Positions 6,717-32,000 of a DNA stretch of 32,000 nt are shown here, piece by piece. Source of the stretch: an uncultured Bacilli bacterium (GTDB taxonomy: Bacteria; Bacillota_I; Bacilli_A; RF39; UBA660); NCBI GenBank assembly GCA_934096315.1, contig CAKOLT010000006.1:13083-45082 (forward strand), read 5' to 3'. The position numbers and the translations under genes are program-made. Numbering within the stretch: position 1 is the first letter of the stretch; each line of letters starts with the position of its first letter. Below the pieces are notes generated by a model. That model was not told where the DNA came from and ran no database searches. It worked only from the letters and a program-made list of their open reading frames with translations.

Positions 6717-9056
6717 TTAATTTTCTATATATTCTAGTAGACTTATAAACATAGTTATGAATTTAGATTCAAGATTCTTTTTTCTAAGTTTTCTAATAGC
6801 TATTCTTTTCTTTTTAACAGATAAGTCACTAAATATTATTTTGTCTATATCTTCTTTTAGACTTGTTGTTATCTCTAGATCCTCAAGAATACTAGCAATT
6901 TCTTCATTAATAACTCTTTCTATACTTATTTCTGTATTTATACCACTTATAGAAACTTCAATAACTCCGGCGGTTGATACTCTTTCTAATTCTATTATTA
7001 AATCATTACGATCGCTGTAACTTCTAAATTGGTATGGACTGTTGTTGTAAGTTACAGATATTGATTCTGTTAGTTTAATATTTTTAAATCTAAAAACATA
7101 TTTACGTGATGGTAAAATGCTGGCATTACCCTCTTTTGGTTTAAGGGATAACTTGTAGTTATCTTTTTGATATTTATATGATATCTCTGTAGTTAGATGG
7201 ATATTATTATTATCTTCATAAAAATTATATGTGTTATCCATTCCTGGGAATATTTGTATTTCTAATTTATCTGGAATATCAGTGTTATCATTAAGTGATA
7301 GTGGTAAAATAGTGCCTGCAATGCAGAATACGGGATAGTCTTCATCCTTATAAAAGCTTGTATAGTATTTTCCACCATTATATTTTTTACCAGTAAAATA
7401 GTCATACCAAGTACCATTTGGTATATATAGTTTTTGGACTACTCTATTCATTACACTATTTTTCTTCTTTGTAATTGGGGCTATTAACATTTGACTTGTG
7501 AAATAGTACTGATTACGATATAATGGCTCATCATATATTTTAGGTTCCATGTAATATAATGGTTTTATAATTGTTTTACCTGATACTGCATAATAGTGTC
7601 CTTCGGAATATAAATATGGAACCAAGGAATTACGTAGTTTCATATATTTTTTAATTACACTTAATATTAAGCTATTCCATTTCCATGGTTCTCTTTTATA
7701 GTATTTTCCCCCTTCACTTGCTAGTATGAATATAGGGCTAAATGTTCCAAACTGGATATACCTTATATATAGTTCGTTATTTTCTATTCCATTATGGTAT
7801 CCGCCGATGGCATGAGCTACAAAGGAAACTCCGATATTAGCACATGATAAGTTATAGAATGGTAAAATGTTTAGTATATTCCAACTGATATTTGTTTTGC
7901 CTGTGTACATAACTGGATATCTATGAGGGGCTATACCACTGTTTAGGCTTAGAATTAGGCCATTTCCGTATTTTTGACTACTGGTATATAAATAGTGTTG
8001 TAGTAGCCATAGGGTGTTTTTATCATTTTTATTGTTATAATCTATATTGAATAGTGATACTCCGACTTGTTCTAGGGATGAGATATAATTATTGTAGAAT
8101 ACAAGCATTTTATTAGAATCTAAGGGAACTAGATTTATATCTTTAGTAGTATTTAACAGCTGGCTAACATGGGGGTATTTACTGTCATTTACGTTTATAC
8201 CGAGACTAGGATTTATGGTAAGACCTAGTCTTATTTTGTTTTGATAAAGATAGTTTGCTACTTCTCTGCCACTACCTAGAGTGGTTTTATCTATTTCATA
8301 ATTATTTGGAGCTTTATGCCATTTGTCTCCGAGTAGAAAAATTGATATTGGTATTTCGTTTTCTTTGAATTTTTTTACTACATTTACAATATCTACTGCA
8401 TTATATTCTTCGTTTTTATACCACCATGCTCCGAGTGCATAACGTGGTACCATACTAGGATAAGATGTTAATTTATAATAATCGTCTAGACAAAGTCCAA
8501 AATCTCTTTTATACATAAATAGATAGATGTCTATGTTATTTCCTTCTCTATTTGTGTAAAAGCCATTTTCATTTAATATCATACTATATGAGTCATCGAT
8601 TGATACAAAGCCATCAATAGAATATAGTCCTTTATCTAACTTAAAATTATTTGTTATGTTCTCTAAGGAGAATGATGATCCACCATAGTTTCTTACTTCT
8701 GGATGTCCATAATACCATTCTTTATCTGTTCCATTTAGAACTACTTTTAGGGTGGAAGAACCAGCGATCTTTCCTACCTTAAATGGTTTATCTTTGACAT
8801 ATGTGAGTGTGAAATAGTTAGTTTTTATTTCTAGTAATATTTGGCTTTCTGTGACATTATATTTGTTTGGATCGAAATCACGAAAGACTACTAGACTTGT
8901 GGGATTATTTATAAAGTTTCCCTCTTTGCTATATTCAAGTCTTATTAATCTTGGGGATAGTATAGTAAATCTATATTTAGCCCCTTGGACTATATTTGCA
9001 CTTTTAGCTACAGCTTTATTATAGTTTTTTGTAAAACTGTTATTGATATTATTCAT
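6717..9056 (-). CDS. glycoside hydrolase family 31-like protein
   Basis: 779 aa. GH31-like blocks PRYALGAWWYKNEEY, EIPISIFLLGDKWH, GVSLFNIDYNN (nucleophile Asp region), YTGKTNISWNIL and GVSFVAHAIGGY (aligns with the GLSFWSHDIGGF-type block). RBS AGGTGA upstream of the ATG. Confidence 0.75.
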   Translation of the reverse strand: MNNINNSFTKNYNKAVAKSANIVQGAKYRFTILSPRLIRLEYSKEGNFINNPTSLVVFRDFDPNKYNVTESQILLEIKTNYFTLTYVKDKPFKVGKIAGSSTLKVVLNGTDKEWYYGHPEVRNYGGSSFSLENITNNFKLDKGLYSIDGFVSIDDSYSMILNENGFYTNREGNNIDIYLFMYKRDFGLCLDDYYKLTSYPSMVPRYALGAWWYKNEEYNAVDIVNVVKKFKENEIPISIFLLGDKWHKAPNNYEIDKTTLGSGREVANYLYQNKIRLGLTINPSLGINVNDSKYPHVSQLLNTTKDINLVPLDSNKMLVFYNNYISSLEQVGVSLFNIDYNNKNDKNTLWLLQHYLYTSSQKYGNGLILSLNSGIAPHRYPVMYTGKTNISWNILNILPFYNLSCANIGVSFVAHAIGGYHNGIENNELYIRYIQFGTFSPIFILASEGGKYYKREPWKWNSLILSVIKKYMKLRNSLVPYLYSEGHYYAVSGKTIIKPLYYMEPKIYDEPLYRNQYYFTSQMLIAPITKKKNSVMNRVVQKLYIPNGTWYDYFTGKKYNGGKYYTSFYKDEDYPVFCIAGTILPLSLNDNTDIPDKLEIQIFPGMDNTYNFYEDNNNIHLTTEISYKYQKDNYKLSLKPKEGNASILPSRKYVFRFKNIKLTESISVTYNNSPYQFRSYSDRNDLIIELERVSTAGVIEVSISGINTEISIERVINEEIASILEDLEITTSLKEDIDKIIFSDLSVKKKRIAIRKLRKKNLESKFITMFISLLEYIEN

Positions 9057-22042: not shown

Positions 22043-23692
22043 TTATTCGAAGTAACTTCCTCCGATGAATTCTCTTAATATAGATGTGTCTGGTACAGCA
22101 TCACTTGGAATTGGTAATACATACTGAAGCAAATCTATTAGTCTAAGTGCAGTGTCATAGGCTGGATCATCTTGTTTTACAGAAAATAGTAGTGGTTCTG
22201 CATATGTTTTTAAGACTCCGAGTTCGTATGCTAGAGAGGAGTTGAATATTTCATCACATACATCTTGGAATGGGAAGACATATTTTTCTTCTCCCTTTCT
22301 AACGTCTTGCCATGTATTTATGGTATGTGTTGGAGTGTATCCTCGTACTCTGTTATCTCTTACTATTCTTCTAAGTAATCTAATATCAGTCATATTTATT
22401 CTGTTATCATTGTCTATATTTAAATATGCAAGAGGGCTTATATATATTTTGTATTTTCTTTTTTTAGGGATATCTTTAAGTAATTCTTCGTTTAAGGCAT
22501 GTAGTCCCTCAATAATTAGGATGTCATTACTTCCTAGTTGCATATTTTTATTATATGTTTTTTTACCTGTAATGAAATCATAGGTAGGTATTGTTACTTT
22601 GTTTCCTTTTAATAGTTTAGTTATTTGATTATTGAATAGTTTAACGTCAATAGCTCTTAGGCTTTCGTAGTCTGGTTTACCATTTTCATCTAGAGGGGTA
22701 TCTTCTCTATTTAAGAAGTAGTCATCTAGTGATAATGGTTTAGGGTTTAGTCCTAGTGTTTTTAGGTATAGAGCTAGTTTCTTAGAGGTTGTAGTTTTTC
22801 CTGAAGATGAGGGACCTGATAGTAGTACTACTTTTATGTCTTCTTTATTTAAGACTATTTTTTCCGCAATACTAAGGAGTTTATAGTCTTGTATTATTTC
22901 TGATAGTTTTACTACTTCCCCACTTTTACTTGCTATTATTAAGTCATCTAGGTCTCCGACGGTGTTCATGTTTAAGACATTACCCCAGCTGGAGTATTCT
23001 TCAATTGCTTTAAAGTATTTTTCATGATGGGTGTATTTAACTATTTTACCATTATCATACATAGAGGGAAATCTTAATACTATTCCTTTTTCTAAAAGTG
23101 TTAAGTCATAGTATTTAAGATAACTACTGTCATAGGGAAGGTCTCCGAGAATATAGTCATACATACCATCAAATTTATATAGTGTTATAAATTTAGCAGT
23201 GTCATAACATAATGTTTTTACTTTGTCTAATCTATTTATGTTTTTAAAGTAGTTTATCGCCTCCATACGGGATGTTTCTATTTTTTGGAAGGGAATTGCC
23301 TTGTTAATCATTTCATCCATTATTTCTTTTATTTTAGGGATATCTTTTTTGTCTAGGGGGGCTTCTATTTCATAGTATACTCCCTTATCAATAGAGTGCC
23401 TTACTCTAAAAGAGATGTCCTTTCCGTAATATTTTAAGATAGCTCTTTTAAAGAGGATGGATAATCCTTTTTCGTATAACATATTACCTCTTTTGGTATT
23501 TATGTCATAAAGTTGTAGGGTACCACTTTTTTCTATAGCGTCATCACACCCGATAAATTGGTTTTTAAATTTACCACTTATAATATCAAATTTATATTCT
23601 TTTTTTACATCATTTATAATGTCTAGGAATTTTATTCCTTTTCGGTATTCTTTCTTTTTACCGTTTTCAAAAGTTATAGTTATTGTATCCAT
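22043..23692 (-). CDS. uridine kinase-family nucleoside kinase fused to a ThrRS-like N-terminal (TGS/second additional) region
   Basis: P-loop LLSGPSSSGKTTTSKKLA, ILIIEGLHALN, RRIVRDNRVRG (uridine kinase/PRK family). The N-terminus ITITFENGKKKEY is TGS-like. I prefer the ATG at 23692 (MDTITI, with AAGGGG 7 nt upstream) over the track start at 23731. Confidence 0.8.
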   Translation of the reverse strand: MDTITITFENGKKKEYRKGIKFLDIINDVKKEYKFDIISGKFKNQFIGCDDAIEKSGTLQLYDINTKRGNMLYEKGLSILFKRAILKYYGKDISFRVRHSIDKGVYYEIEAPLDKKDIPKIKEIMDEMINKAIPFQKIETSRMEAINYFKNINRLDKVKTLCYDTAKFITLYKFDGMYDYILGDLPYDSSYLKYYDLTLLEKGIVLRFPSMYDNGKIVKYTHHEKYFKAIEEYSSWGNVLNMNTVGDLDDLIIASKSGEVVKLSEIIQDYKLLSIAEKIVLNKEDIKVVLLSGPSSSGKTTTSKKLALYLKTLGLNPKPLSLDDYFLNREDTPLDENGKPDYESLRAIDVKLFNNQITKLLKGNKVTIPTYDFITGKKTYNKNMQLGSNDILIIEGLHALNEELLKDIPKKRKYKIYISPLAYLNIDNDNRINMTDIRLLRRIVRDNRVRGYTPTHTINTWQDVRKGEEKYVFPFQDVCDEIFNSSLAYELGVLKTYAEPLLFSVKQDDPAYDTALRLIDLLQYVLPIPSDAVPDTSILREFIGGSYFE

Positions 23693-23715
23693 AATATAAC
23701 CCCTTTCTATTTTAT

Positions 23716-25467
23716 TTATTTTATATACCATACTTCATTTATGTTAACACTCTGACTATTAGGAGCTGGGTTTGGTTTATCCATTTTAACAATAACTGGT
23801 ATTTTAAAGGCATTACCAAATATCATACATACCCCAGGATTTAGACTTTTAATCATTCTGATTTCTCCTTCACTTACGTCTGGAATGATATCAGAGACGA
23901 ATTTTAGGTCTTTTGGGTGAAACATTTTAAAGACTAAGAAGTTACTGCACTGACTTACGGCAGTCTCACTTAATTCAAATGGTCTTTGGCTAATTAGTCC
24001 TAGAATACATCCATATTTTCTTCCTTCTTTGGCTATTCTATCAAAGATATTGTATCCGAGGATATTTACGTCTATATCATTTTGGACATATCTATGGGCT
24101 TCTTCTAAGACTATGTGGAATGGTAGACTACCTCTTATTTTTAATTTAGCTATATAGTCAAAGAGTATTCTAGAGTATATTTTAACTAGTCCTTTAGCAA
24201 ATCTATCATCTACATAGTTTATGTTGAAGTTAATTACTTGGGCTTTATTTCCTGTTCTTGAAGTTAATAACATTTTGATATATCCATCCATATCTATATA
24301 TCTATCAAAGTTAAAGTATATAGCATAATCTCCCTTACAAAGGGTATATAGTCTTATTTTAAGAACGTTTGCATAGTTATATACTTTATCACTATTGAAT
24401 ATACCTTCACTAATTAGGGCAAACTCTAATGAGTAATAGAAGTCATCCATGGTATACATATAACTACCACTAGGAAGAACAAGAGGTATATCAAAGTTTT
24501 CGAACTTCTCTAGGTATTTAATTATTAATTCTATGTCTGCAAACCTACCACCTTCTTCAATAGATATACACTGTCTAAAGGTTCTAACCCATCCCCCTTT
24601 ACTTAATTTTATATCTAAGTTTATTTCTCCGGTTTGAAACTTTGTTAGTATAGATATTATTTTATTTCTAGCTTCACTTACATTCTTACTTGAGAATATT
24701 GTATCAAGGAGGCTCTTAGCTATTATACTGTTTTTATAGTTATCAATACTAGCATCTTCACTTGCAAAGTAGTTTACATATTTAAGGGCTTTTTCTATTA
24801 TGGGTAGTTGTCTAACATCATCTACTCCGAGAAGAATAGCTATATCATCAGCATTTAGTAACCAAAATGGTATTATTAGTTTTTCGTTTTCAGTGTCATT
24901 TAGGTTAGTGGTATATACTTTATAGTTTATGTTTTCATTAGTACTTCCTATTTCTTTGAAGGCTTGTTGGTATTCACCATAAGCATCAAAGAGGAATATA
25001 TTAGTTCTAAAGGGAAGGTATTTAGCTTCGTAGAAGATACTTTGTAGTATCTTTGCTACAGAGTAGCTTTTACCACTTCCTGTATTACCTAGTATAGAAA
25101 AGTGGTTGGAGAAAAAGCTATTTACATTCATATTTATGTTATAGTCATTATATATATAACTAGTACCTAGTTTTATATAATTGTCATTACTACTAGTGGA
25201 ATATACTATATCTAATTCTTCTTTAGTTATTAATCTTACCTCGCTATTAAAACTAGGGGGTACAATACTTCCATAAATAAATTTACCATTTTCAAATAGT
25301 CCGATTAGTTTAATGGTTAAGTGTTCTGTATCTACATTACTAATAGTACCTACGATAGTATTATTAAATACTACATACTTACCATTAACATTACCTATTT
25401 CATATATATTAATACTTAGTTTTACTTTAACTATAGTGTCTTCAACACTTATTATATTACCTAACAT
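23716..25467 (-). CDS. HerA/FtsK-like (DUF87) P-loop ATPase
   Basis: 583 aa. N-terminal HAS-barrel-like beta region, Walker A ILGNTGSGKSYSV, Walker B FHIVLEEAHRYV, GLISQRP sensor block. Confidence 0.8.
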   Translation of the reverse strand: MLGNIISVEDTIVKVKLSINIYEIGNVNGKYVVFNNTIVGTISNVDTEHLTIKLIGLFENGKFIYGSIVPPSFNSEVRLITKEELDIVYSTSSNDNYIKLGTSYIYNDYNINMNVNSFFSNHFSILGNTGSGKSYSVAKILQSIFYEAKYLPFRTNIFLFDAYGEYQQAFKEIGSTNENINYKVYTTNLNDTENEKLIIPFWLLNADDIAILLGVDDVRQLPIIEKALKYVNYFASEDASIDNYKNSIIAKSLLDTIFSSKNVSEARNKIISILTKFQTGEINLDIKLSKGGWVRTFRQCISIEEGGRFADIELIIKYLEKFENFDIPLVLPSGSYMYTMDDFYYSLEFALISEGIFNSDKVYNYANVLKIRLYTLCKGDYAIYFNFDRYIDMDGYIKMLLTSRTGNKAQVINFNINYVDDRFAKGLVKIYSRILFDYIAKLKIRGSLPFHIVLEEAHRYVQNDIDVNILGYNIFDRIAKEGRKYGCILGLISQRPFELSETAVSQCSNFLVFKMFHPKDLKFVSDIIPDVSEGEIRMIKSLNPGVCMIFGNAFKIPVIVKMDKPNPAPNSQSVNINEVWYIK

Positions 25468-25548
25468 ATTTTGTATCCTTTCTTTATATATTATATATAA
25501 GTATATAAGGCCACAGGAGGTTAGAGTCCTCCTTTGTCCTTATATTTA

Positions 25549-26568
25549 CTATGAGCATGTGTCACATCCAAGGGTATATGGGTTATCAAAGGAACCGCCT
25601 CCTCCGGTTACATAGACACTGGATTTTAGATAGAAGGTGGGGCGGGCGGCAGGAGGAACGTTCGTGCTATAGCGATACACGTCGCCAGAACTGACGCGCC
25701 ACACGCGATTCGAGCCAGAAGCATAAGGTGTTATTGTCCACTCATATCCTTTATATAACCAATTATTATTTCCAAAGTAATGTGCACTTTGAGTTGTTGT
25801 ATCAGAACTTGAGTAATAACCACTTGCGTATAGGTAATCACTTAAGTACATTAGACCTACTGGAGCGTCTGTTGTAGGACTGTAAGAACCTGATTTTGCA
25901 GAGGTACAAGAGTTTCCTCCTCTTTCACATAAGTACCAGTTTTGTTTACTCTGGTCTGTACCACTACCGTATAGGTACCACGTTACTGTTTCTATATAAC
26001 TTCTTAGGTTATCTGCTATTCCATAGCCTACTATAGGAGTGCAGTTATTAGTCCTATAATTAGTATTACTACTATAGTATGTCCAAGTACTACAATTACC
26101 ATAGGTATCTGATATATCCTTTTTATTATAAAAGTATTCATTAAGTAAAATATTAAGGTTTCCTCCTACCCAATTGTTGTTATACTCAGAGTATGTACCA
26201 CTAGTATTTGAACTATTACGTACTCCCCAAGAATATCCTCCAAGAGAACGGGCTCTAATTAATTTAACCATTTCTACTCCTGTTTTACCATGGGAATTAG
26301 AATCAAAGACTCCTATTATACGATACATATCATTATTAAACTTAACATAGTTATTAACTTCTGCTCCTACATATCTATATTCATGAGAATTAGTATAGTA
26401 TACTCCACTAGCCCCACTTGACCAACTAGAGCCTTTATTTAAGGCTTTAACTGTATCTACTAGAGTTGTGCCTACGGCATAACTCTTTTTAGAGTTTACC
26501 TGAAATACTACTATAACAAGTGTAACTAGTATTAAAGATACTATTATAATTATTTTCTTTTTACTCAT
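25549..26568 (-). CDS. DGR variable protein 2 (signal-anchored, C-type-lectin-like C-terminal domain carrying VR1)
   Basis: 339 aa. N-terminal anchor IIIIVSLILVTLVIVVF. The body is almost identical to the C-terminal 300 aa of the 28960..31416 protein. VR1 encodes ASGSNRVWRVSSGDVYRYSTNVPPAARP near the C-terminus. Confidence 0.85.
   Translation of the reverse strand: MSKKKIIIIVSLILVTLVIVVFQVNSKKSYAVGTTLVDTVKALNKGSSWSSGASGVYYTNSHEYRYVGAEVNNYVKFNNDMYRIIGVFDSNSHGKTGVEMVKLIRARSLGGYSWGVRNSSNTSGTYSEYNNNWVGGNLNILLNEYFYNKKDISDTYGNCSTWTYYSSNTNYRTNNCTPIVGYGIADNLRSYIETVTWYLYGSGTDQSKQNWYLCERGGNSCTSAKSGSYSPTTDAPVGLMYLSDYLYASGYYSSSDTTTQSAHYFGNNNWLYKGYEWTITPYASGSNRVWRVSSGDVYRYSTNVPPAARPTFYLKSSVYVTGGGGSFDNPYTLGCDTCS
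25640..25722 (-). repeat. DGR variable repeat VR1
   Basis: Gap-free 83-nt alignment to the TR. 18 differences fall at TR adenines (coding strand) and 3 at non-adenine positions. It ends in the GC-only run GCCGCCCGCCCC. Confidence 0.9.
25723..26103 (-). repeat. 381-bp segment identical to 29119..29499 (copy A)
   Basis: A base-by-base read shows no mismatch over 381 bp directly abutting the VR. Identity decays beyond 26104/29500 and downstream of the VR. Confidence 0.85.
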
Positions 26569-26849
26569 TCATTACCATTCCTCTCATTTAATTTCTTATT
26601 TATATTATTTAAAATATAGGCTAGTTTATATTTTAAATAATATAAATTATACTTATTATCCACATACTCTTTCTTATGTACATTTAAGTTATCAATTACT
26701 ATATAGTTAATATGATACTCCCTTAATTTATCTATCTTTTTAAAGTTTACTCTTTTATCATTTATATAAGTATATAACTTACCTTTCTTTGCTATTAATA
26801 TTACATAGTTATTATACCACAGTTTAGCCATATTGTATCTATTTTTCAT
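26565..26849 (-). CDS. hypothetical 94-aa protein translationally coupled to DGR target 2
   Basis: ATG preceded by AAGGGAG (6-nt spacing). The stop overlaps the target-2 start (ATGA). Lys/Asn/Tyr-rich, no TM segment, no recognised family. Confidence 0.5.
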   Translation of the reverse strand: MKNRYNMAKLWYNNYVILIAKKGKLYTYINDKRVNFKKIDKLREYHINYIVIDNLNVHKKEYVDNKYNLYYLKYKLAYILNNINKKLNERNGNE

Positions 26850-26877
26850 ATCTTACTCCCTTGTTATGTGTCTTGTA

Positions 26878-26899
26878 GGGACTTTATAAATAAAGTCCC
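26878..26899 (-). other. perfect 10-bp hairpin in the noncoding segment 3' of the TR
   Basis: GGGACTTTAT AA ATAAAGTCCC. It lies about 100 nt downstream (- strand) of the TR and about 30 nt upstream of orf94. No U-run follows, so it is not a canonical terminator. Confidence 0.45.
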
Positions 26900-27002
26900 G
26901 TCCACATACTGTCTTTAGGGTTTAACCCAAGGATAGTCTATGTTACTTATATCTATCAAAGTATATCCTTAAACATACAGTCTCCCAAATATAAGAAGCT
27001 AA

Positions 27003-27085
27003 GGGCGGGCGGCATTAGGATTGTTCGTGTTATTTTTATTGACGTTGCCATTACTGACGTTCCACGCATTATTCGAGTCAGAAGC
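27003..27085 (-). repeat. DGR template repeat (TR)
   Basis: Noncoding, 24 nt downstream of the RT stop. In the VR frame it reads ASDSNNAWNVSNGNVNKNNTNNPNAARP, with 11 AAY codons and 28 adenines. It ends in GCCGCCCGCCC, matching both VRs. Confidence 0.9.
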
Positions 27086-27109
27086 CCATTAAAGACTACC
27101 CTATAATAG

Positions 27110-27967
27110 TTAGTTATATCTATCTATTATATTATTTATCTTTTCTCTATTATATTTAAATGTATATTTATAGTTATTTACACTACTAAATCTCTTCTCA
27201 AAGGTTATATAACCTTTGAGAAATAATTTCTTGTTTTTTCTAGTAGTTCTTTTTATCTTATTCATAGTCTCTGATCTTAAGTTCACTATGGTTTTATTAT
27301 TTATTACTCTATACCTATAACTTAGAAATACAAACCCTTCTTTAGAACTTACTATCATAGTCTTTTTCTTATTTATTTTTAATTTATATTCATTTAAGAG
27401 TATAAATTCTATTTCCTTTAGACACTTCTTTAAATACTCTTTATCTGGGTGCATTAATATATAATCATCCATATAGACTACTAGATGCTTTATTTTTAGT
27501 TTATGTACTATATAATTATGTAATTTATATAGATAGAATATAGCAAGAAACTGATTGGACAAGAGTCCAATGGATAATCCTTTACCTTTGTTATACAAAG
27601 GTAAAGAGTTTATCTCATCCCTATGGGATGGGTTTCTTTCGGATTCCTTCTCCTTAAGTTTTATTATAGTATCATTTACATAACCTTGGTTAGTGGACTC
27701 TAGTATTAAGTTTAGATATCTATATTCTTCTTTAGTAACTTTATCTTTAATAAGACTCTTTAATACTTCATGGTCTATATTATAGAAATATTTAGATATA
27801 TCTAACTTAAGTATATAGAATTTATTATTTCTTTTTTCTTCTTCTAGATACTTCATAACTAATTTATGAGCATAACTAGAACCCATACCCTTTCTAGTGG
27901 CAACATTCCTAATGTCTAAATACCTTGATAAGAAATATATTGTATTTAGGCATTGGTATGGTGCCAC
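27110..27967 (-). CDS. DGR-type reverse transcriptase, main (C-terminal) reading frame
   Basis: RT motifs ATRKGMGSSYA (motif 2), YILKLDISKYFYNIDHEVL (3), GLSIGLLSNQFLAIFYL (4, the DGR-like I-G-x-x-x-S-Q region), VVYMDDYILM (5, YxDD) and KINKKKTMIVSSKEGFVFLSYRY (6/7). It has no ATG start and continues from the 27909..28106 frame after a 1-nt shift. Confidence 0.85.
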   Translation of the reverse strand: MAPYQCLNTIYFLSRYLDIRNVATRKGMGSSYAHKLVMKYLEEEKRNNKFYILKLDISKYFYNIDHEVLKSLIKDKVTKEEYRYLNLILESTNQGYVNDTIIKLKEKESERNPSHRDEINSLPLYNKGKGLSIGLLSNQFLAIFYLYKLHNYIVHKLKIKHLVVYMDDYILMHPDKEYLKKCLKEIEFILLNEYKLKINKKKTMIVSSKEGFVFLSYRYRVINNKTIVNLRSETMNKIKRTTRKNKKLFLKGYITFEKRFSSVNNYKYTFKYNREKINNIIDRYN

Positions 27968-28106
27968 TTTCTATATTCTCATTAATTGAGGTTATGTATT
28001 CCATTTTCTGTGTTTCAAACTCATATAACCTTCTTTTGTTCTTTGCTTTCTTACATAACTCTTTTTCGTATATGTCTAATAACCTCTGGAGATTAACATT
28101 ATTCAT
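27909..28106 (-). CDS. N-terminal fragment of the DGR reverse transcriptase (separate frame)
   Basis: 65 aa, MNNVNLQRLLDIYEKELCKKAKNKRRLYEFE...IESGTIPMPKYNIFLI, like the usual DGR RT N-terminus (L..A...A.KGK ... G.Y.P..Y..F.I). It stops at 27909-27911 and overlaps the avd stop by 8 nt. Confidence 0.7.
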   Translation of the reverse strand: MNNVNLQRLLDIYEKELCKKAKNKRRLYEFETQKMEYITSINENIESGTIPMPKYNIFLIKVFRH

Positions 28107-28443
28107 TTGCTTTTATCCATCCCCTTGTTATTTTATTAATCTCTGTTAATTTATTGGTTCTTTCTTTAAGTTGTTTTTGACTAATATATTTATATATATA
28201 CATTCTCTCTAAGTAGAAGTCTACAACTTTAAGGCTTACTATTACTAATTCTTGTAAATGTAATCTTCTTTCTTTATCTGCCTTTATTAAGTTAGCATTA
28301 TAAATATTTCTTAATATATTAAGTAGTTCTTCTCTAATTTGATCTCTATTATATAAATCTTTTTTGGGGATATTCTCTAAAAGAGGTTCCATAGTTAATA
28401 TAAATTCTTTTACTTTCTTAGCTAGTATAAAGTTATCATCCAT
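28099..28443 (-). CDS. avd: Avd-like accessory variability determinant (four-helix-bundle protein)
   Basis: 114 aa, basic and all-helical by composition. LAKKVKEFILTMEPLLENIPKKDLYNRDQIREELLNILRNI resembles the Avd / four-helix-bundle family (F..l...lp..e...l..Q.). It lies immediately upstream of, and overlapping, the RT. Confidence 0.7.
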   Translation of the reverse strand: MDDNFILAKKVKEFILTMEPLLENIPKKDLYNRDQIREELLNILRNIYNANLIKADKERRLHLQELVIVSLKVVDFYLERMYIYKYISQKQLKERTNKLTEINKITRGWIKANE

Positions 28444-28873
28444 GAATAATCACGTCTTCGATAACAGTTAATATTTTCTTTAGAGTCTCTTCACTTTCAA
28501 TATTGTAAATTTTATTTACAATATTGTCTACTCTTTCTTTATTTTCCATTTGTATTAGTGCCTTTTTTAATATCTTGTAATAATTATTTAAATTCTTAAA
28601 GTTTACGGTTACTGGTTCGTGGTCTCTATATAGTATGGAATAGTTTATTTTGTGTTTTTCTAAGGCGTTTACTACTTTATTTAGTGATGTTTCAGGAAAG
28701 CCCACGGTGCCAGTGAAACTTATTTTATACCCAAAGAGATAGTTTAATATTTTACTATCATCATTATACGAACTGAAAAAGGCACCATTTTTATAGACAC
28801 GCAAAACCCCCTTATTATTCTCTCTCTGTTCGCTCGCTCTCTCTGTTCGCTCGCTCTCTCTGAGAGCGTCCAA
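28436..28873 (-). CDS. MutS domain-I-like small accessory protein
   Basis: VLRVYKNGAFFSSYNDDSKILNYLFGYKISFTG..TVGFPETSLNKVVNALEKHKINYSIL parallels the MutS N-terminal mismatch-binding domain ([32 protein letters not shown]...[25 protein letters not shown]). The track start is a TTG and the N-terminus is uncertain. Confidence 0.55.
   Translation of the reverse strand: MDALRESERTERASEQRENNKGVLRVYKNGAFFSSYNDDSKILNYLFGYKISFTGTVGFPETSLNKVVNALEKHKINYSILYRDHEPVTVNFKNLNNYYKILKKALIQMENKERVDNIVNKIYNIESEETLKKILTVIEDVIIHG
28822..28868. repeat. GC-rich 17-bp tandem repeat (2.4 copies) ending in a 7-bp palindrome
   Basis: CTCTCTGTTCGCTCGCT at 28822-28838 and 28839-28855, then CTCTCTG. CGCTCTC (28852-28858) pairs with GAGAGCG (28862-28868) around a 3-nt loop. 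Confidence 0.8.
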
Positions 28874-28959
28874 TATCTTTTTCTTCTTTCATTTTTAATC
28901 ATTCCTTTCTTGGTCAAGGAAGAGTAAACCCTTCCCTGCCCATTTATTTTTTATATTAT

Positions 28960-31416
28960 TTATTCTATTACATATGGGTCATCAATTGTTCCGTCTCCCC
29001 CGAGTATTGAGACTGTAGATTTTAGATATAAGGTAGGGCGGGCGGCATAAGGAGGGTTCGTGGCATAGTCATTCACGTAGCCACTACTGACGTGCCACAC
29101 GCGAATCGAGGCAGAAGCATAAGGTGTTATTGTCCACTCATATCCTTTATATAACCAATTATTATTTCCAAAGTAATGTGCACTTTGAGTTGTTGTATCA
29201 GAACTTGAGTAATAACCACTTGCGTATAGGTAATCACTTAAGTACATTAGACCTACTGGAGCGTCTGTTGTAGGACTGTAAGAACCTGATTTTGCAGAGG
29301 TACAAGAGTTTCCTCCTCTTTCACATAAGTACCAGTTTTGTTTACTCTGGTCTGTACCACTACCGTATAGGTACCACGTTACTGTTTCTATATAACTTCT
29401 TAGGTTATCTGCTATTCCATAGCCTACTATAGGAGTGCAGTTATTAGTCCTATAATTAGTATTACTACTATAGTATGTCCAAGTACTACAATTACCATAT
29501 GTATCTGATGTATCCTTTTTATTATAAAAATATTCATTAAGTAAGATATTAAGGTTTCCTCCTACCCAATTATTGTTATAACTAGAGTAAGTACCACTAG
29601 TATTTGAGGAGTTATGATTACCCCATGAATATCCTCCAAGAGGATTAGCCATTATTAACTTAACTAAATAACCATCTTTACCATGAGAATTAGAGTCAAA
29701 GACTCCTATTATTTGATACATATCATTATTAAACCAGACATAGTTTTTAGGTTCTGCTCCTATATATCTATATTCATGGTATTTCACTGTACCATCAGTA
29801 TCAGTATACTTATTAGTAGCATATAATCCTTCTGCCCCTGACTCCCATGTATCTCCTTGATTTAACTTAATAATCTTACTTACGGCATTTTCTTTAATAG
29901 ATACTTTCTTATAATATTTATATCTATTACCATTATTGTCTTCTAAAACATATATAGCATTAACAGAACCATTAATACTCTCTGATGTAGCTGGTTTAAC
30001 TAATACTATCTTACAACCTGTTCCATTGTCTTTACAAGTAACTAGGTCTTTTAAGGCTACTATTGGTTCTTTTTCTATACCTACACTACTTGTATCTATA
30101 CTTGGAACAGTAGATGATAATGTTGTAGAAGTTATCCTTGCATAACCATTACCAGAGTGTCCTGTTTCACTTGTTCCTGATGTACCTGTAAAGGAAGTAT
30201 TTCCTCCCACTGTAGCGGCATCTGTTAAGTAATAACTACTAGTTAATTTAACACCTGATGGATAGTTTGAGGCTGTACTAGAAGTATATACATATCCAGA
30301 ACCTCCTCCACCGGCATAGTTTTCGGAAGACCCTCCAGTACCACCGTACCATCCACTTCCACCACCACCACATTCTCCACTAGAATATGTAGCATTTCCA
30401 CCACTACCAAAACTAGAACCAGATGTTGATGTTCCTCCAGACATACTTCCAGCTCCTCCAGAGGTACCTCCTCCATAGCCACCATTAGCATCATCAGAAC
30501 CTCCGCCTCCGCCTCCAGCGACTATTACTCTGGAATAGAGATTATCTTCAGATATTCTAATATCAGAGGCTCCTCCGCCTCCACCACCATTGTGACTTGT
30601 ACCATTCCAAGCAACTCCAGAACCTCCGCCATTAAATCCTCCAGCAAGGGTTGCTTCCGAACTAAAAGAACCATCATCGTTTGTTCCTTGACCCCCTACA
30701 TAGATAAATATATTAGTATCTTTTGTTAGTGTAAGTGTTCCATAACTATAACCACCCATTCCCCCCGGATGTGATGATGAACCTCCACCTTGAGCACCCC
30801 ATACTTCTAATTTATGGGTACCACTTTTAAGTGTAGCTGTTTGCACTGCTCCAGTATAATTATAATCAGTAGTAGTTGTTTTTGTCTCTGTCCCACCTTC
30901 AGGTACATTTCCTGTATTAAATGTCTCTGTAACAATATATTTACCTTGTTCTAACCCTAACTCATTAGAGTCTGCTCCTGCTACTCCAATATTTATGGTT
31001 ATTTCACTACTGGTATTATTTATTATTAATAATTCTACTGGTAATTTCTCGTCATTATTAATAGTACCTACTGTAGGGTTAGTACTCCAGTCTATTTTAT
31101 AAATTCCTATATCATCACTTTTAGTACTAGGATTAACCATTTCATAAAATACTCCGTAGTAAATACTTTTACCAGTATCATTGGATACATTAACTATTAC
31201 TGATCTATTGTTTCCTGCGGATACTTTAACTTGTTTATATTCAAACACCTTTAGGGTTGTTTGTATATCACTTGCACTCTTCATGGTTATTATATCTTTA
31301 GTGGTAGTCTTCTCTAAGGAGAAGAGTGCAAATGATGAGTACATACATAGGGATAGTATCCCTATGATTATTATTAGTAATAAATAGTTTTCTTTTATCA
31401 TATATCTATCTTTCAT
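28960..31416 (-). CDS. DGR variable protein 1 (anchor + beta module + ALK/LTK-type glycine-rich domain + lectin-like domain with VR2)
   Basis: 818 aa. GGAGG lies 6 nt before the ATG. N-terminal TM helix LLLIIIIGILSLCMY. Residues about 184-430 are glycine-rich (LEVWGAQGGG, IFIYVGGQG, GGGGGGASDIRI, RVIVAGGGGGG). The C-terminal 300 aa are paralogous to 25549..26568. VR2 encodes ASASIRVWHVSSGYVNDYATNPPYAARP. Confidence 0.85.
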   Translation of the reverse strand: MKDRYMIKENYLLLIIIIGILSLCMYSSFALFSLEKTTTKDIITMKSASDIQTTLKVFEYKQVKVSAGNNRSVIVNVSNDTGKSIYYGVFYEMVNPSTKSDDIGIYKIDWSTNPTVGTINNDEKLPVELLIINNTSSEITINIGVAGADSNELGLEQGKYIVTETFNTGNVPEGGTETKTTTTDYNYTGAVQTATLKSGTHKLEVWGAQGGGSSSHPGGMGGYSYGTLTLTKDTNIFIYVGGQGTNDDGSFSSEATLAGGFNGGGSGVAWNGTSHNGGGGGGASDIRISEDNLYSRVIVAGGGGGGSDDANGGYGGGTSGGAGSMSGGTSTSGSSFGSGGNATYSSGECGGGGSGWYGGTGGSSENYAGGGGSGYVYTSSTASNYPSGVKLTSSYYLTDAATVGGNTSFTGTSGTSETGHSGNGYARITSTTLSSTVPSIDTSSVGIEKEPIVALKDLVTCKDNGTGCKIVLVKPATSESINGSVNAIYVLEDNNGNRYKYYKKVSIKENAVSKIIKLNQGDTWESGAEGLYATNKYTDTDGTVKYHEYRYIGAEPKNYVWFNNDMYQIIGVFDSNSHGKDGYLVKLIMANPLGGYSWGNHNSSNTSGTYSSYNNNWVGGNLNILLNEYFYNKKDTSDTYGNCSTWTYYSSNTNYRTNNCTPIVGYGIADNLRSYIETVTWYLYGSGTDQSKQNWYLCERGGNSCTSAKSGSYSPTTDAPVGLMYLSDYLYASGYYSSSDTTTQSAHYFGNNNWLYKGYEWTITPYASASIRVWHVSSGYVNDYATNPPYAARPTLYLKSTVSILGGDGTIDDPYVIE
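29036..29118 (-). repeat. DGR variable repeat VR2
   Basis: Gap-free 83-nt alignment to the TR. 15 differences fall at TR adenines, plus the same 3 non-adenine differences seen in VR1. Confidence 0.9.
29119..29499 (-). repeat. 381-bp segment identical to 25723..26103 (copy B)
   Basis: Same as copy A; constant offset of 3396 nt. Confidence 0.85.
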
Positions 31417-31443
31417 CTAATTACCTCCGTAGTATCTATAATA

Positions 31444-31472
31444 ATTATAGCATATGAAATAATAAAACACAA
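31444..31472 (-). promoter_or_regulatory. candidate sigma-A promoter of DGR target 1
   Basis: - strand TTGTGT (31467-31472), 17-nt spacer, TATAAT (31444-31449), then GGAGG (31424-31428) and the ATG at 31416. The -35 element lies inside the upstream terminator arm. Confidence 0.4.
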
Positions 31473-31504
31473 GAAAATTGAAAATATTTTTCTTGTGTTT
31501 TATT
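31461..31504. terminator. strong hairpin terminator (17-bp stem)
   Basis: AATAAAACACAAGAAAA (31461-31477) pairs perfectly with TTTTCTTGTGTTTTATT (31488-31504). T/A-runs on both sides insulate the DGR from the upstream gene. Confidence 0.7.
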
Positions 31505-31611
31505 ATTTAGTAATTATCTATAATACCTACTGAGGTAAAATATTGTAAATGTTATACTAAGTATTAACTATTATATCTATGGTTATACCATGTATAGTAT
31601 AAATTAAAATT

Positions 31612-31636
31612 AGACCCATATAATATATATGGATCT
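31612..31636 (-). terminator. putative terminator after the Rpn-tail-like gene
   Basis: 11-bp stem (AGATCCATATA / TATATGGGTCT on the - strand, one G-U pair), 3-nt loop, followed by AATTTTAATTT. Confidence 0.45.
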
Positions 31637-31673
31637 ATGTAGAGATAAATTTTATTTTAATTAATAAGTTTTA

Positions 31674-31967
31674 CTATTTTATGTTATTTATTTCTGCTAC
31701 TGTATGACCTGTAATTTTAGATATTATTTTTTCGTCTAGTCCTTCTTTTAGCATAGCTTTTATTGTTTTTACTGCCTCAGCTTGTTTTCCTTTTTCTATT
31801 CCTTGTTCTATACCTTGTTCTATTCCTTGTTCTATACCTTCCCTAAGTCCTTTTTTTCTTGCTTCCTCGGCAAAGTATTCTCTTTCCTCTCTAGCTAGTT
31901 TCTCTTGGTCATAGGGATTTATACAAACATTACTATTTTTATATTCCTCAAAGTAATCACTAAACAT
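31674..31967 (-). CDS. small protein resembling the C-terminal tail of Rpn/YhgA-like (PD-(D/E)XK transposase-like) proteins
   Basis: 97 aa. Strong RBS AAGGAGG 6 nt before the ATG. REGIEQGIEQGIEQGIEKGK...AVKTIKAMLKEGLDEKIISKITGHTVAEINNI is the repeat plus helix-turn-helix-like tail typical of Rpn-family C-termini. The nuclease domain is absent. Confidence 0.55.
   Translation of the reverse strand: MFSDYFEEYKNSNVCINPYDQEKLAREEREYFAEEARKKGLREGIEQGIEQGIEQGIEKGKQAEAVKTIKAMLKEGLDEKIISKITGHTVAEINNIK
31789..31848. repeat. 12-bp in-frame tandem repeat (GIEQ units)
   Basis: CCTTGTTCTAT(A/T) three times at 31801-31836, flanked by degenerate copies. Encodes (E/K)QGI repeats. Confidence 0.8.
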
Positions 31968-32000
31968 TTTAACCTCCTTATCATATCTTCCATCCTCTGT

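What the first reader, a model, noticed from the sequence alone, without database searches (positions are those of the whole stretch)
28436..28873. MutS mismatch-binding-domain-like protein encoded as the first gene of the DGR accessory operon
Residues about 23-85 align by eye with MutS domain I, including the aromatic-rich G-x-F-(Y/F) strand (NGAFFSSYNDD versus [11 protein letters not shown]) and the G(I/F)P...L...L...G motif. The rest is a short helical tail, with no ATPase domain. The gene overlaps avd by 8 nt, and avd overlaps the RT by 8 nt, so all three are co-expressed. As far as I recall, a MutS-like (MSL) accessory class has been noted in DGR surveys, but I know of no assigned function. 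A stand-alone mismatch-binding module beside an engine that deliberately creates A-site mismatches is mechanistically suggestive. It might protect or recognise the cDNA:target heteroduplex, or block host mismatch repair.
Basis: inference. Interest (0 to 1): 0.7.

Follow-up and report, generated by a model that had tools for sequence, protein, structure and literature searches.

The report
MutS-like accessory gene of a retroelement
The gene encodes a small protein made of the mismatch-recognition domain of the DNA-repair protein MutS; it belongs to a known but functionally untested class (MSL) of helper genes of diversity-generating retroelements, and here it begins with a length-variable DNA repeat that may switch it on and off.

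Summary
Window 28436-28873 (minus strand) encodes a 145-aa protein. Its residues about 17-95 are a MutS domain I and the rest is a two-helix tail. This rests on a weak single-sequence Pfam hit, 62 of 70 relatives hitting MutS_I, a profile hit to MSH6, and a confident AlphaFold model whose 50 best PDB matches are all MutS/MSH. It is the first gene of a real DGR cassette and overlaps avd by 8 nt.

This is the published MSL accessory class (Wu et al. 2018), so it is a new member of a known kind. No held paper tests its function. All ten sampled relatives with enough flanking DNA lie in DGR cassettes.

The mismatch-stacking Phe is invariant, but the repair-licensing Glu is lost. My best guess, which is inferred, is that MSL binds the mismatch-rich cDNA:VR heteroduplex and shields it from host MutS.

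Three caveats or extras:
- This copy's RT carries a 95-nt frameshifting deletion, so the DGR is probably dead.
- The MSL 5' end holds a copy-number-polymorphic tandem repeat whose unit length is not a multiple of 3. It is a candidate phase-variation switch.
- A second, minimised MSL paralog (orf94) follows the TR.

The parts
28436..28873 (-). MSL ORF as flagged (145 aa from TTG 28873): MutS domain I (about residues 17-95) plus a C-terminal helical hairpin (98-144).
   Evidence: An identical protein (P0174) is found on 9 public contigs.
28436..28804 (-). Alternative 122-aa form starting at in-frame TTG 28804 (codon 24). This is the start that gene callers use in the L005 lineage (P0002, MRVYKNGAFY...).
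   Evidence: The upstream ORF from ATG 28892 stops 10 nt before this TTG, and the same spacing occurs in L005.
28820..28862 (-). 17-nt tandem repeat GAGAGAGCGAGCGAACA, 2.5 copies, followed by a (GA)n run, at the 5' end of the MSL ORF. Copy number differs among close relatives.
28815..28892 (-). Short upstream ORF (25 codons) starting at the ATG best spaced from the Shine-Dalgarno AAAGGA. It reads through the repeat in another frame and ends 10 nt before TTG 28804.
   Evidence: It is fused in frame to MSL in relatives with fewer repeat bases (L015/L016, P0178).
28911..28942 (-). Conserved stem-loop between the target-1 stop codon and the MSL ribosome-binding site (GGGCAGGGAAGGG-UUUA-CUCUUCCUUGACC).
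   Evidence: z -3.8 for the 161-nt stretch. Compensatory changes occur in L005 and an analogous hairpin in L011. No T-run follows it.
28099..28443 (-). avd (114 aa), overlapping the MSL stop by 8 nt.
   Evidence: bAvd E 2e-8 and DivGenRetAVD E 7e-11.
27110..28106 (-). DGR reverse transcriptase, disrupted. A 95-nt deletion (junction 27923|27922) removes ...DPKYRIIMSVSIYDKLINHYYS...KKLSK and shifts the frame.
   Evidence: RVT_1 E 9e-12. Alignment to the intact RTs of L005 and L011. The 96-98%-identical strain L015 is intact across the junction.
27002..27088 (-). Template repeat (TR), 28 adenines in 88 nt.
29035..29118 (-). VR1, at the C-terminal end of target gene 1 (28960-31416, 818 aa, ALK_LTK_GRD glycine-rich domain).
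   Evidence: 15 of 21 mismatches to the TR are at TR adenines (binomial p 2e-4). Pfam.
25639..25722 (-). VR2, at the C-terminal end of target gene 2 (25549-26568, 339 aa, a paralog of the target-1 C-terminus).
   Evidence: 18 of 25 mismatches are at TR adenines (p 4e-5).
26565..26849 (-). orf94, a conserved small gene between the TR and target 2. It is a minimised, Phe-less remote paralog of MSL.
   Evidence: Same position in L005, L011, L013, L014, L019 and L021. 121 clusters found. hhalign against the MSL family gives probability 97.5% and E 5e-12. AF2 pLDDT is 91 and the best PDB match is the MSH3 chain of MutSbeta (MutS-family; TMq 0.53, E 0.09).

Best explanation
Identity (shown). The ORF is a member of the MSL (MutS-like) class of DGR accessory proteins. 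It is a stand-alone MutS domain I followed by a family-specific two-helix hairpin. It is encoded immediately upstream of avd, overlaps it, and sits inside a target1-MSL-avd-RT-TR-orf94-target2 cassette.

Mechanism (inferred). MSL keeps the aromatic residue that MutS wedges against a mismatched base (Phe32 here, aligned with MutS Phe36). It has lost the Glu of the Phe-X-Glu motif and every part of MutS that turns mismatch binding into repair: the connector, clamp, ATPase and MutL-recruiting surfaces.

I therefore think it is made together with Avd and RT. It would then bind the adenine-mismatch-dense heteroduplex formed when mutagenised cDNA pairs with VR. Either alone or tethered to the Avd-RT particle, it would occlude the mismatches from host MutS/MutL. 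The new sequence would then survive instead of being rejected or repaired back. This would be a natural counterpart of the dominant-negative MutL used in engineered DGR systems.

In this sub-clade, translation of MSL passes through a slippage-prone tandem repeat, so production may be stochastic. In this particular genome the RT is deleted, so the cassette is probably no longer active.

Confidence in identity is about 0.95 and in the anti-MMR mechanism about 0.4.
For: Identity:
- MutS_I hits come from single sequence, family, PDB profile and fold.
- The class is described in PMC5758913.

DGR context:
- TR/VR pairs show adenine-specific mismatches.
- avd and RT are identified.

Association with DGRs:
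- Relatives sampled from the hit list lie next to bAvd and/or an RVT_1 RT in L001, L005, L009, L011, L017, L019, L021, L143 and L144. With the window that makes 10 independent lineages.
- The same cassette also recurs on further contigs of the window and L005 lineages: L012-L016.

Residue pattern in 136 aligned relatives:
- The Phe aligned with MutS Phe36 is present in 97% (100% of non-gap residues).
- The Glu38-equivalent position is Glu in only 9% (Ser here).
- The GFP motif is 90/100/96% conserved.
- Median pI is 8.9.

MutS E38A/Q/T mutants still crystallise on a G.T mismatch (PDB 1wbb, 1wbd and 1wb9 are listed).

Biological rationale from papers:
- Deleting host mutS raises retrohoming 5-10 fold in a Bacteroides DGR that lacks Msl.
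- E. coli DGR engineering adds dominant-negative MutL, or deletes mutS, to keep the substitutions.

Physical linkage hints:
- The 8-nt overlaps suggest translational coupling.
- P0093 is one MSL-bAvd fused ORF.
Against: - No experiment on any MSL exists in the held literature.
- An isolated MutS domain I lacks the clamp domain that gives MutS most of its DNA affinity (established knowledge of MutS structures).
- The Phe is also kept in subunits that do not contact the mismatch, for example MSH2 (from memory), so its conservation may be structural.
- The beta-hairpin loop that contacts DNA in MutS is shortened here.
- The three Msl-bearing Bacteroides DGRs are the quiescent ones, and the Msl-less ones are highly active, so MSL is not needed for high activity.
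- The BPP-1 DGR works without MSL and independently of MutS.
- I could not check whether these Bacilli hosts have mutS/mutL.
- In this window the RT is broken. In L015/L016 MSL itself is frameshifted, which shows relaxed constraint in this lineage.
Confidence: 0.45

Rival explanations
1. MSL is a structural or nucleic-acid-handling subunit of the Avd-RT-TR RNA particle and has nothing to do with host mismatch repair. It might hold the RNA:cDNA hybrid, the primer-template, or the cDNA during hand-over to VR. The MutS_I fold would be reused only as a nucleic-acid or protein-binding scaffold.
For: - MSL is always adjacent to avd and usually overlaps it.
- One MSL-bAvd fused ORF exists (P0093).
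- MutS_I motifs are fused to RT C-termini (PMC5758913).
- A second MutS_I gene sits directly upstream of the RT in L001.
- A Phe-less paralog, orf94, lies in the same cassette, and an orf94-MSL fusion (P0047) exists. This suggests a multi-subunit assembly.
- The Glu of Phe-X-Glu is not conserved, and median pI is 8.9.
Against: - BPP-1 RT-Avd alone performs adenine-mutagenic cDNA synthesis (established literature, from memory), so no extra subunit is intrinsically required.
- The near-absolute conservation of the mismatch-stacking Phe is not predicted by a pure scaffold role.
Confidence: 0.3
2. In this genome the gene is a relic. The DGR is dead, so MSL currently does nothing here, whatever the family does elsewhere.
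For: - A 95-nt deletion removes part of the N-terminal region of the RT (about 32 residues, DPKYRIIMS...KKLSK) and shifts its frame. L005, L011 and the near-identical L015 are intact there.
- Both VRs agree with each other against the TR at three internal non-adenine positions. In intact relatives, 5 of 6 TR/VR pairs have at most one non-adenine mismatch, and the sixth has three of 16.
- Neither Shine-Dalgarno-proximal ATG is in frame with MSL.
Against: - The MSL, avd and orf94 frames are all still open.
- The identical MSL protein occurs on 9 public contigs.
- The RT deletion could be strain-specific or an assembly error.
- In-frame TTG starts exist at 28873 and 28804.
Confidence: 0.4
3. MSL recruits or redirects host repair, rather than blocking it, so that the cDNA strand is used as the template and the mutations are fixed.
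For: Only the MutS_I homology and the conserved Phe, together with the 'all-or-nothing' repair behaviour of VR heteroduplexes in Bacteroides.
Against: - MSL lacks every MutS region known to signal to MutL or the clamp (145 aa only).
- Host MutS lowers retrohoming rather than raising it.
Confidence: 0.07

Closest known systems
MSL (MutS-like) DGR accessory proteins, Architecture D of Wu et al. 2018 (PMC5758913); Msl of the Bacteroides Bfr/Bth/Bun DGRs (bioRxiv 10.1101/2024.11.15.621889)
   Same: It is a small protein of 145 aa (or 122 aa), within the published 112-283 aa range. It lies inside a DGR cassette, co-occurs with avd, and has detectable homology to the MutS mismatch-recognition domain. 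Its function is unknown.
   Different: - This Bacilli sub-clade is basic (median pI 8.9), whereas the published set averages 7.2.
- It carries a copy-number-variable tandem repeat at its 5' end.
- It is accompanied by a second, minimised paralog (orf94).
- I could not compare it directly with the published MSL sequences, because the supplement is not held.
MutS domain I (Pfam PF01624) of bacterial MutS and eukaryotic MSH6/MSH3
   Same: The fold matches (Foldseek probability about 1.0 over 59-102 alignment columns). The G-x-F-Y...D-A and G-[FI]-P motifs are shared. The Phe aligned with the mismatch-stacking Phe36 (MSH6 Phe432) is invariant.
   Different: - There are no connector, core, clamp or ATPase domains.
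- The Glu of Phe-X-Glu is not conserved (Ser34 here; Glu in 9%).
- The loop before GFP is shortened.
- A C-terminal helical hairpin (98-144) is added, with conserved N96 and Y98.
- The window protein alone scores 17.8 bits, under the Pfam cut-off of 20.6.
Dominant-negative MutL(E32K) or mutS deletion used in engineered DGR and recombineering systems
   Same: If the hypothesis is right, the job is the same: to stop mismatch repair from erasing substitutions carried by an annealed cDNA/ssDNA.
   Different: Those act on MutL or remove MutS. MSL would act at the mismatch itself, and nothing has been shown for MSL.
Simple-sequence contingency loci, for example the tetranucleotide CAAT tracts in Haemophilus lic genes (from memory)
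   Same: A tandem repeat lies just after the start codon with a unit not divisible by 3 (CAAT x7 in L144; 14-mer and 17-mer elsewhere). Copy number is polymorphic among near-identical strains and moves the start codon in and out of frame.
   Different: - Most units here are long (14-17 nt) and copies are few.
- Alternative in-frame starts exist in the 'off' states.
- Within-clone switching was not observed.

Membership tests
MSL class of DGR accessory genes (Wu et al. 2018) | The gene lies within a DGR cassette (RT plus a TR/VR pair with adenine-specific differences). | tested here: met
   RVT_1 RT. The TR at 27002-27088 pairs with VR1 and VR2, with 15 of 21 and 18 of 25 mismatches at TR adenines.
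MSL class of DGR accessory genes (Wu et al. 2018) | Small protein (112-283 aa) with homology to MutS. | tested here: met
   145 aa. MutS_I similarity is shown by Pfam, PDB profile and fold.
MSL class of DGR accessory genes (Wu et al. 2018) | Co-occurs with avd, and no HRDC gene is present. | tested here: met
   avd is immediately downstream. No HRDC hit was found among the cassette ORFs scanned.
MSL class of DGR accessory genes (Wu et al. 2018) | Direct sequence relatedness to the 16 published MSL proteins. | not testable with these tools
   The supplementary sequences are not held.
Pfam MutS_I (PF01624) | Whole-protein score at or above the gathering threshold (20.6 bits). | tested here: not met
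   The window protein scores 17.8 bits, E 0.004. Many relatives pass: 62 of 70 at E<=0.01, best 2.3e-11. P0004 has a precomputed PF01624 hit.
Pfam MutS_I (PF01624) | MutS domain I fold. | tested here: met
   AF2 pLDDT is 93.5. The top 50 PDB matches are all MutS/MSH, probability 0.99-1.00. BFVD matches are named 'MutS domain I'.
Mismatch-recognising MutS subunits (MutS, MSH6) | A complete Phe-X-Glu motif. | tested here: not met
   The Phe is present and invariant. The Glu position is Ser34 here and is Glu in only 9% of 136 relatives.
MutS-family mismatch repair proteins | Connector, core, clamp and ABC ATPase domains. | tested here: not met
   The protein ends at residue 145. After domain I there are only two helices, and there are no other Pfam hits.
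Slipped-strand phase-variable (contingency) genes | A repeat tract within or just after the translation start, with unit length not divisible by 3. | tested here: met
   17-mer x2.5 in the window and L005. 14-mer x6.8 in L011. (CAAT)x7 in L144-146. A 10-nt unit is inferred from the peptide periodicity of P0101.
Slipped-strand phase-variable (contingency) genes | Copy number differs among near-identical strains and changes the frame relative to the start codon. | tested here: met
   Window lineage: 2.5 copies (window, L012, P0174) versus about 1.5 (L015/16, P0176, P0178). L011 lineage: 1.8, 3.8, 4.8, 6.8 and 7.8 units with alternating start frames. A repeat-free control cluster is uniform in length.
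Slipped-strand phase-variable (contingency) genes | Reversible high-frequency switching within a clonal population, with loss and gain of the product. | not testable with these tools
   This needs read-level data or reporter fusions.

The most novel reading that the evidence does not exclude
In this Bacilli sub-clade, the tandem repeat between the ribosome-binding site and the MutS_I core is a slipped-strand contingency switch. It would turn MSL on and off and, through the 8-nt overlaps, possibly the translationally coupled Avd and RT as well. Targeted hypermutation would then itself be phase-variable.

When on, MSL would work with its minimised Phe-less paralog orf94 as an asymmetric MutS-like pair, in the manner of MSH6/MSH2 domain I. 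This pair would mask cDNA:VR mismatches from host repair.
Probability: 0.3. Interest if true: 0.7.

Novelty: new member of a known kind. Interest (0 to 1): 0.45.

Why it matters
MSL is the least understood recurrent DGR accessory protein. Recent work shows that host MutS cuts DGR retrohoming 5-10 fold, and DGR engineers have to disable mismatch repair. A DGR-encoded mismatch-binding decoy would explain how natural elements get past repair. It would also give a compact, portable anti-MMR part for DGR- or retron-based in vivo evolution.

This analysis supplies several things:
- A large family: 953 clusters at 50% identity.
- A confident structural model.
- The residue pattern (Phe kept, Glu lost).
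- Intact relatives (L005, L011) suitable for a clean epistasis test.

If the 5' repeat is a real switch, it would be a new way of regulating DGR activity. How DGR activity is regulated is an acknowledged open question.

Tried and rejected
- **Chance resemblance to MutS:** rejected by the family-level Pfam, PDB-profile and fold results.
- **Phage origin:** blastn of 25000-32000 and tblastn of the window MSL and P0004 against 50,697 phage records gave nothing. Two viral-contig scans also gave nothing. The rest of the window is chromosomal (DnaG, Sua5, GH31).
- **The search for related loci with the 70-sequence alignment:** The 4-sequence alignment gave only 4 genome loci.
- **Metagenome scans:** the conserved 26-mer downstream of the repeat gave no match. 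The repeat core CAGAGRGAGCN{4,7}CAGAGRGAGC gave 120 loci, and none encodes an MSL. This was a dead end.
- **Programmed ribosomal frameshifting across the repeat:** considered and set aside. The shift that would be needed differs between lineages and between the two ATGs.
- **The hairpin at 28911-28942 as an intrinsic terminator:** no T-run follows it, and the scan does not list it.
- **A separate promoter for MSL:** promoter-like matches are not above the shuffle expectation.
- **Supplementary MSL sequences of Wu et al.:** not held.
- **orf94 by Pfam:** no meaningful hit. Its relation to MSL appeared only in the profile-profile comparison.
- **One relative without visible DGR neighbours:** P0121 on L142, a 1.7-kb contig whose flanking ORFs are an unknown 129-aa protein and a pilin-like fragment. 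The contig is too short to decide.
Full report
**What is at the coordinates.**

Window 28436-28873 (minus strand) is an open frame of 145 codons starting at TTG. It lies in a minus-strand cassette with this order:
- Target gene 1 (28960-31416, 818 aa), with an ALK/LTK-type glycine-rich domain and a C-terminal variable region.
- The flagged ORF.
- avd (28099-28443; bAvd E 2e-8, NCBIfam DivGenRetAVD E 7e-11).
- A reverse transcriptase (RVT_1 E 9e-12).
- A template repeat at 27002-27088.
- A 94-codon ORF (26565-26849).
- A second target gene (25549-26568).

The TR differs from VR1 (29035-29118) at 21 positions, 15 of them TR adenines. It differs from VR2 (25639-25722) at 25 positions, 18 of them adenines. 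The TR is 32% A (binomial p 2e-4 and 4e-5). This is a diversity-generating retroelement. The rest of the window is ordinary low-GC (29.5%) bacterial chromosome with DnaG, Sua5 and glycosidases. The nearest genome record is an uncultured gut Bacilli MAG.

**Is it MutS domain I?**

- On its own the protein hits Pfam MutS_I only weakly: E 0.004, 17.8 bits against a cut-off of 20.6, residues 17-74 on profile positions 11-76.
- An exhaustive HMMER search with a 4-sequence profile found 953 cluster representatives at E<=1e-3 and 287 at E<=1e-10. The best 150 are all short, 76-225 aa.
- Of 70 aligned relatives, 62 hit MutS_I at E<=0.01 (best 2.3e-11), and no other family recurs.
- The family profile finds MSH6 domain I at E 1.8e-6, Taq MutS at 0.02 and E. 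coli MutS at 0.06 among 177,635 PDB sequences.
- An AlphaFold2 model built on the 70-sequence alignment is confident (pLDDT 93.5, pTM 0.80). It has an N-terminal helix, a beta/alpha core over 23-90, and two long helices at 98-123 and 128-144.
- All 50 best Foldseek matches in the PDB are MutS, MSH6, MSH3 or MSH2 chains, with probability 0.99-1.00 over 59-102 alignment columns.
- The best viral-library matches are small phage proteins named 'MutS domain I' and giant-virus MutS proteins.

**Is it known?**

Yes. Wu et al. 2018 (PMC5758913) defined MSL, 'MutS-like', as one of four DGR accessory gene classes. It was found in 16 of 372 DGRs, at 112-283 aa, always with avd and never with HRDC. They also noted MutS_I motifs in three RT C-terminal extensions. 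Macadangdang et al. 2024 mention Msl in three Bacteroides DGRs. A 2026 preprint cites 'many MutS-like homologs' as its reason for suppressing MMR. Searches of the held library found no paper that tests MSL function. The features that define the class are all met here. The one thing I could not do is compare directly with the published sequences, because the supplement is not held.

**Association with DGRs.**

I looked up the genomic context of relatives spread through the hit list.
- With the window, ten independent lineages have MSL next to bAvd and/or an RVT_1 RT: L001, L005, L009, L011, L017, L019, L021, L143 and L144.
- Usually MSL overlaps avd by a few bases, with the RT on either strand.
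- The same cassette also recurs on further contigs of the window and L005 lineages, L012-L016.
- The single exception, L142, is a 1.7-kb contig that is too short to judge.
- L001 carries a second MutS_I gene directly upstream of its RT.

**What the residues say.**

In 136 aligned relatives:
- The Phe that aligns with MutS Phe36 / MSH6 Phe432, the residue that stacks on the mismatched base, is present in 97% (all non-gap rows).
- The position of Glu38 is Asn/His/Lys/Tyr/Glu/Arg, with Glu at only 9% and Ser34 here.
- G30, D39, Y49, G58-F59-P60, K66, Y78, N96 and Y98 are 85-100% conserved.
- Median pI is 8.9.

The loop preceding GFP, which is a DNA-contacting hairpin in MutS, is short and variable. 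E. coli MutS E38A/Q/T variants are in the PDB bound to a G.T mismatch (1wbb, 1wbd, 1wb9; listed). Loss of the Glu is therefore compatible with mismatch binding that does not authorise repair; that interpretation of Glu38 comes from established literature and is cited from memory.

**Most likely mechanism (inferred, about 0.4).**

MSL looks like the sensor of MutS without the engine. Host MutS lowers retrohoming 5-10 fold in Bacteroides and appears to act all-or-nothing on VR heteroduplexes. Engineered DGRs need dominant-negative MutL or delta-mutS. A DGR-encoded protein made with Avd and RT that sits on the mismatches and cannot recruit MutL would protect the new sequence.

Against this:
- An isolated domain I lacks the clamp.
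- The Phe is also conserved in non-contacting subunits (MSH2, from memory).
- Msl-bearing Bacteroides DGRs are the quiescent ones, while Msl-less ones are very active.
- BPP-1 needs neither MSL nor MutS.
- I could not check whether these hosts have MMR.

The main rival (about 0.3) is that MSL is a subunit of the Avd-RT particle acting on RNA:cDNA or on hand-over. This is supported by the tight gene linkage, one MSL-bAvd fused ORF (P0093), the RT-MutS_I fusions of Wu et al., and the paralog described below.

**State of this particular locus.**

- The RT is not intact. Relative to L005, L011 and the 96-98%-identical L015, the window lacks 95 nt (junction 27923|27922). The missing stretch encodes DPKYRIIMSVSIYDKLINHYYS...KKLSK, and its loss shifts the frame.
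- Both VRs agree with each other against the TR at three internal non-adenine positions.
- In the intact relatives L005, L011 and L013, five of six TR/VR pairs have at most one non-adenine mismatch (12/12, 10/11, 13/13, 10/10, 12/12 at adenines). The sixth has 13 of 16.

This DGR is therefore probably inactive, unless the deletion is an assembly error. 'Co-expressed' can apply only to MSL and avd here.

**The 5' end of the gene.**

The TTG start lies just 5' of a perfect 17-nt tandem repeat (GAGAGAGCGAGCGAACA x2.5, 28820-28862) followed by a GA run. The two ATGs next to the only good Shine-Dalgarno sequence (28902, 28892) are both out of frame with MSL. The ORF from ATG 28892 ends 10 nt before an in-frame TTG at 28804. 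That TTG is where gene callers start the 122-aa form in the L005 lineage, and L005 has the same 10-nt spacing.

Copy number varies among near-identical strains:
- The window, L012 and P0174 (9 contigs) have 2.5 copies.
- L015/L016 have 19 nt fewer, which fuses ATG 28892 to MSL.
- P0176 (MIKNERRKRYWTLSEIASEQRENNKGVLRVYK...) fuses ATG 28902.
- P0178 is a third in-frame variant.

Repeats occur at the same place in related lineages:
- In the L011 lineage (41% identical protein) the repeat is a 14-mer related to the 17-mer (GACCAGAGGGAGCA). Members of one 90%-identity cluster carry 1.8, 3.8, 4.8, 6.8 or 7.8 units. The Shine-Dalgarno-proximal ATG (MNNNYTNLNGSM...) is in frame at 1.8, 4.8 and 7.8 units, and out of frame at 3.8 and 6.8.
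- In L144-146 (37% identical) the tract is (CAAT)x7 after AAAGGAGGAG-N7-ATG, one unit away from being in frame.
- P0101 shows a peptide periodicity that implies a 10-nt unit.

Controls:
- Repeat-free MSL loci have ordinary ATG starts.
- A repeat-free cluster is uniform in length, with 9 of 11 members at 128 aa.

Units of 4, 10, 14 and 17 nt at the same place, all polymorphic and none divisible by 3, look like a contingency tract. I found no paper linking DGRs to slipped-strand phase variation.

Caveats:
- Alternative in-frame starts exist in the 'off' states.
- The commonest state in two lineages has no ATG in frame.
- Several of these cassettes carry other lesions: the window RT deletion, a 1-nt RT insertion in L144, and a 1-nt MSL deletion in L015/16.
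- Within-population switching is untested.

I put about 0.3-0.4 on a genuine switch.

**A second MutS_I-derived gene.**

orf94 (26565-26849) occupies the same position, after the TR and overlapping the start of target 2, in L005, L011, L013, L014, L019 and L021. It has 121 clusters of relatives, all 61-143 aa (mostly 85-120 aa), with no Pfam family and the name 'hypothetical protein [Bacilli bacterium]'.
- Profile-profile comparison with the MSL family gives probability 97.5% and E 5e-12 over 83 columns. Helix 1 and the first two strands align (KKGKLYTY versus KNGAFFSSY, so the Phe is not kept). The YLFGYK...GFP segment is deleted. The INYIIID strand and the DN.Y-helix align again.
- Its AF2 model (pLDDT 91) has the MSH3 chain of MutSbeta (a MutS-family protein) as best PDB match (TMq 0.53, rmsd 2.7 A, but E only 0.09) and E. 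coli MutS further down the list.
- P0047 is an orf94-like domain fused to a full MSL.

This suggests that the two proteins act together. An asymmetric pair reminiscent of MutS dimers is possible but speculative.

**Verdict.**

The finding is real and correctly interpreted, but it is a new member of a published class. Its interest lies in three things: MSL's unsolved function, which is now testable; the candidate phase-variable tract; and the minimised paralog.

Noticed in passing
window 27110-28106 (junction 27923|27922): The DGR reverse transcriptase carries a 95-nt deletion that removes about 32 residues of its N-terminal region and shifts the frame. The intact relatives L005 and L011 and the near-identical strain L015 do not have it.
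   Followed up: yes
window 28820-28862; L005 8008-8049; L011 4732-4826; L144 4063-4092: Tandem repeats with units of 17, 17, 14 and 4 nt lie between the ribosome-binding-site ATG and the MutS_I core of MSL. Copy number is polymorphic within >90%-identity clusters and moves the ATG in and out of frame. This is a candidate slipped-strand switch. The 14- and 17-nt units share the core GACCAGAGRGAGC.
   Followed up: partly
window 26565-26849: orf94 is a conserved small gene after the TR and a remote, shortened, Phe-less paralog of MSL (hhalign probability 97.5%). P0047 is an orf94-like domain fused to MSL.
   Followed up: partly
window 28911-28942; L005 about 7905-7935; L011 4619-4652: A conserved stem-loop lies between the target-1 stop codon and the MSL ribosome-binding site, with compensatory changes between lineages. 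No T-run follows it. It may be an mRNA element or a DGR target-side hairpin.
   Followed up: partly
window 27002-27088 versus 29035-29118 and 25639-25722: Both VRs agree with each other against the TR at three internal non-adenine positions (T>C, C>T, C>G). This implies TR drift since the last homing. Five of six TR/VR pairs in intact relatives have at most one non-adenine mismatch.
   Followed up: yes
window 28960-31416: DGR target 1 carries a strong ALK/LTK glycine-rich domain (PF12810, E 5e-46) upstream of its variable C-terminus. Target 2 (25549-26568) is a shorter paralog of the C-terminal third.
   Followed up: no
window 22043-25467: Directly downstream of target 2 are a HerA-like DUF87 ATPase (23716-25467) and a 562-aa protein with a PRK/uridine-kinase-type NTPase domain and a weak nSTAND3 hit (22043-23731). 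This may be a defence-type gene pair.
   Followed up: no
L144 about 5000-5015 (also L145, L146): The RT of the (CAAT)7-bearing cassette has a 1-nt insertion that splits it into 72-aa and 272-aa frames, in three samples.
   Followed up: partly
L015 and L016, MSL codons about 33-35: A 1-nt deletion after GAFY frameshifts MSL in two samples of a strain 96% identical to the window. In that strain the start ATG is in frame and the RT is intact over its first 203 codons.
   Followed up: yes
L143 1-958; P0093: Two fused arrangements occur in MSL-bearing DGRs: a 444-aa bAvd-RVT_1 fusion protein (L143) and a 187-aa ORF that joins a truncated MSL to bAvd (P0093).
   Followed up: no
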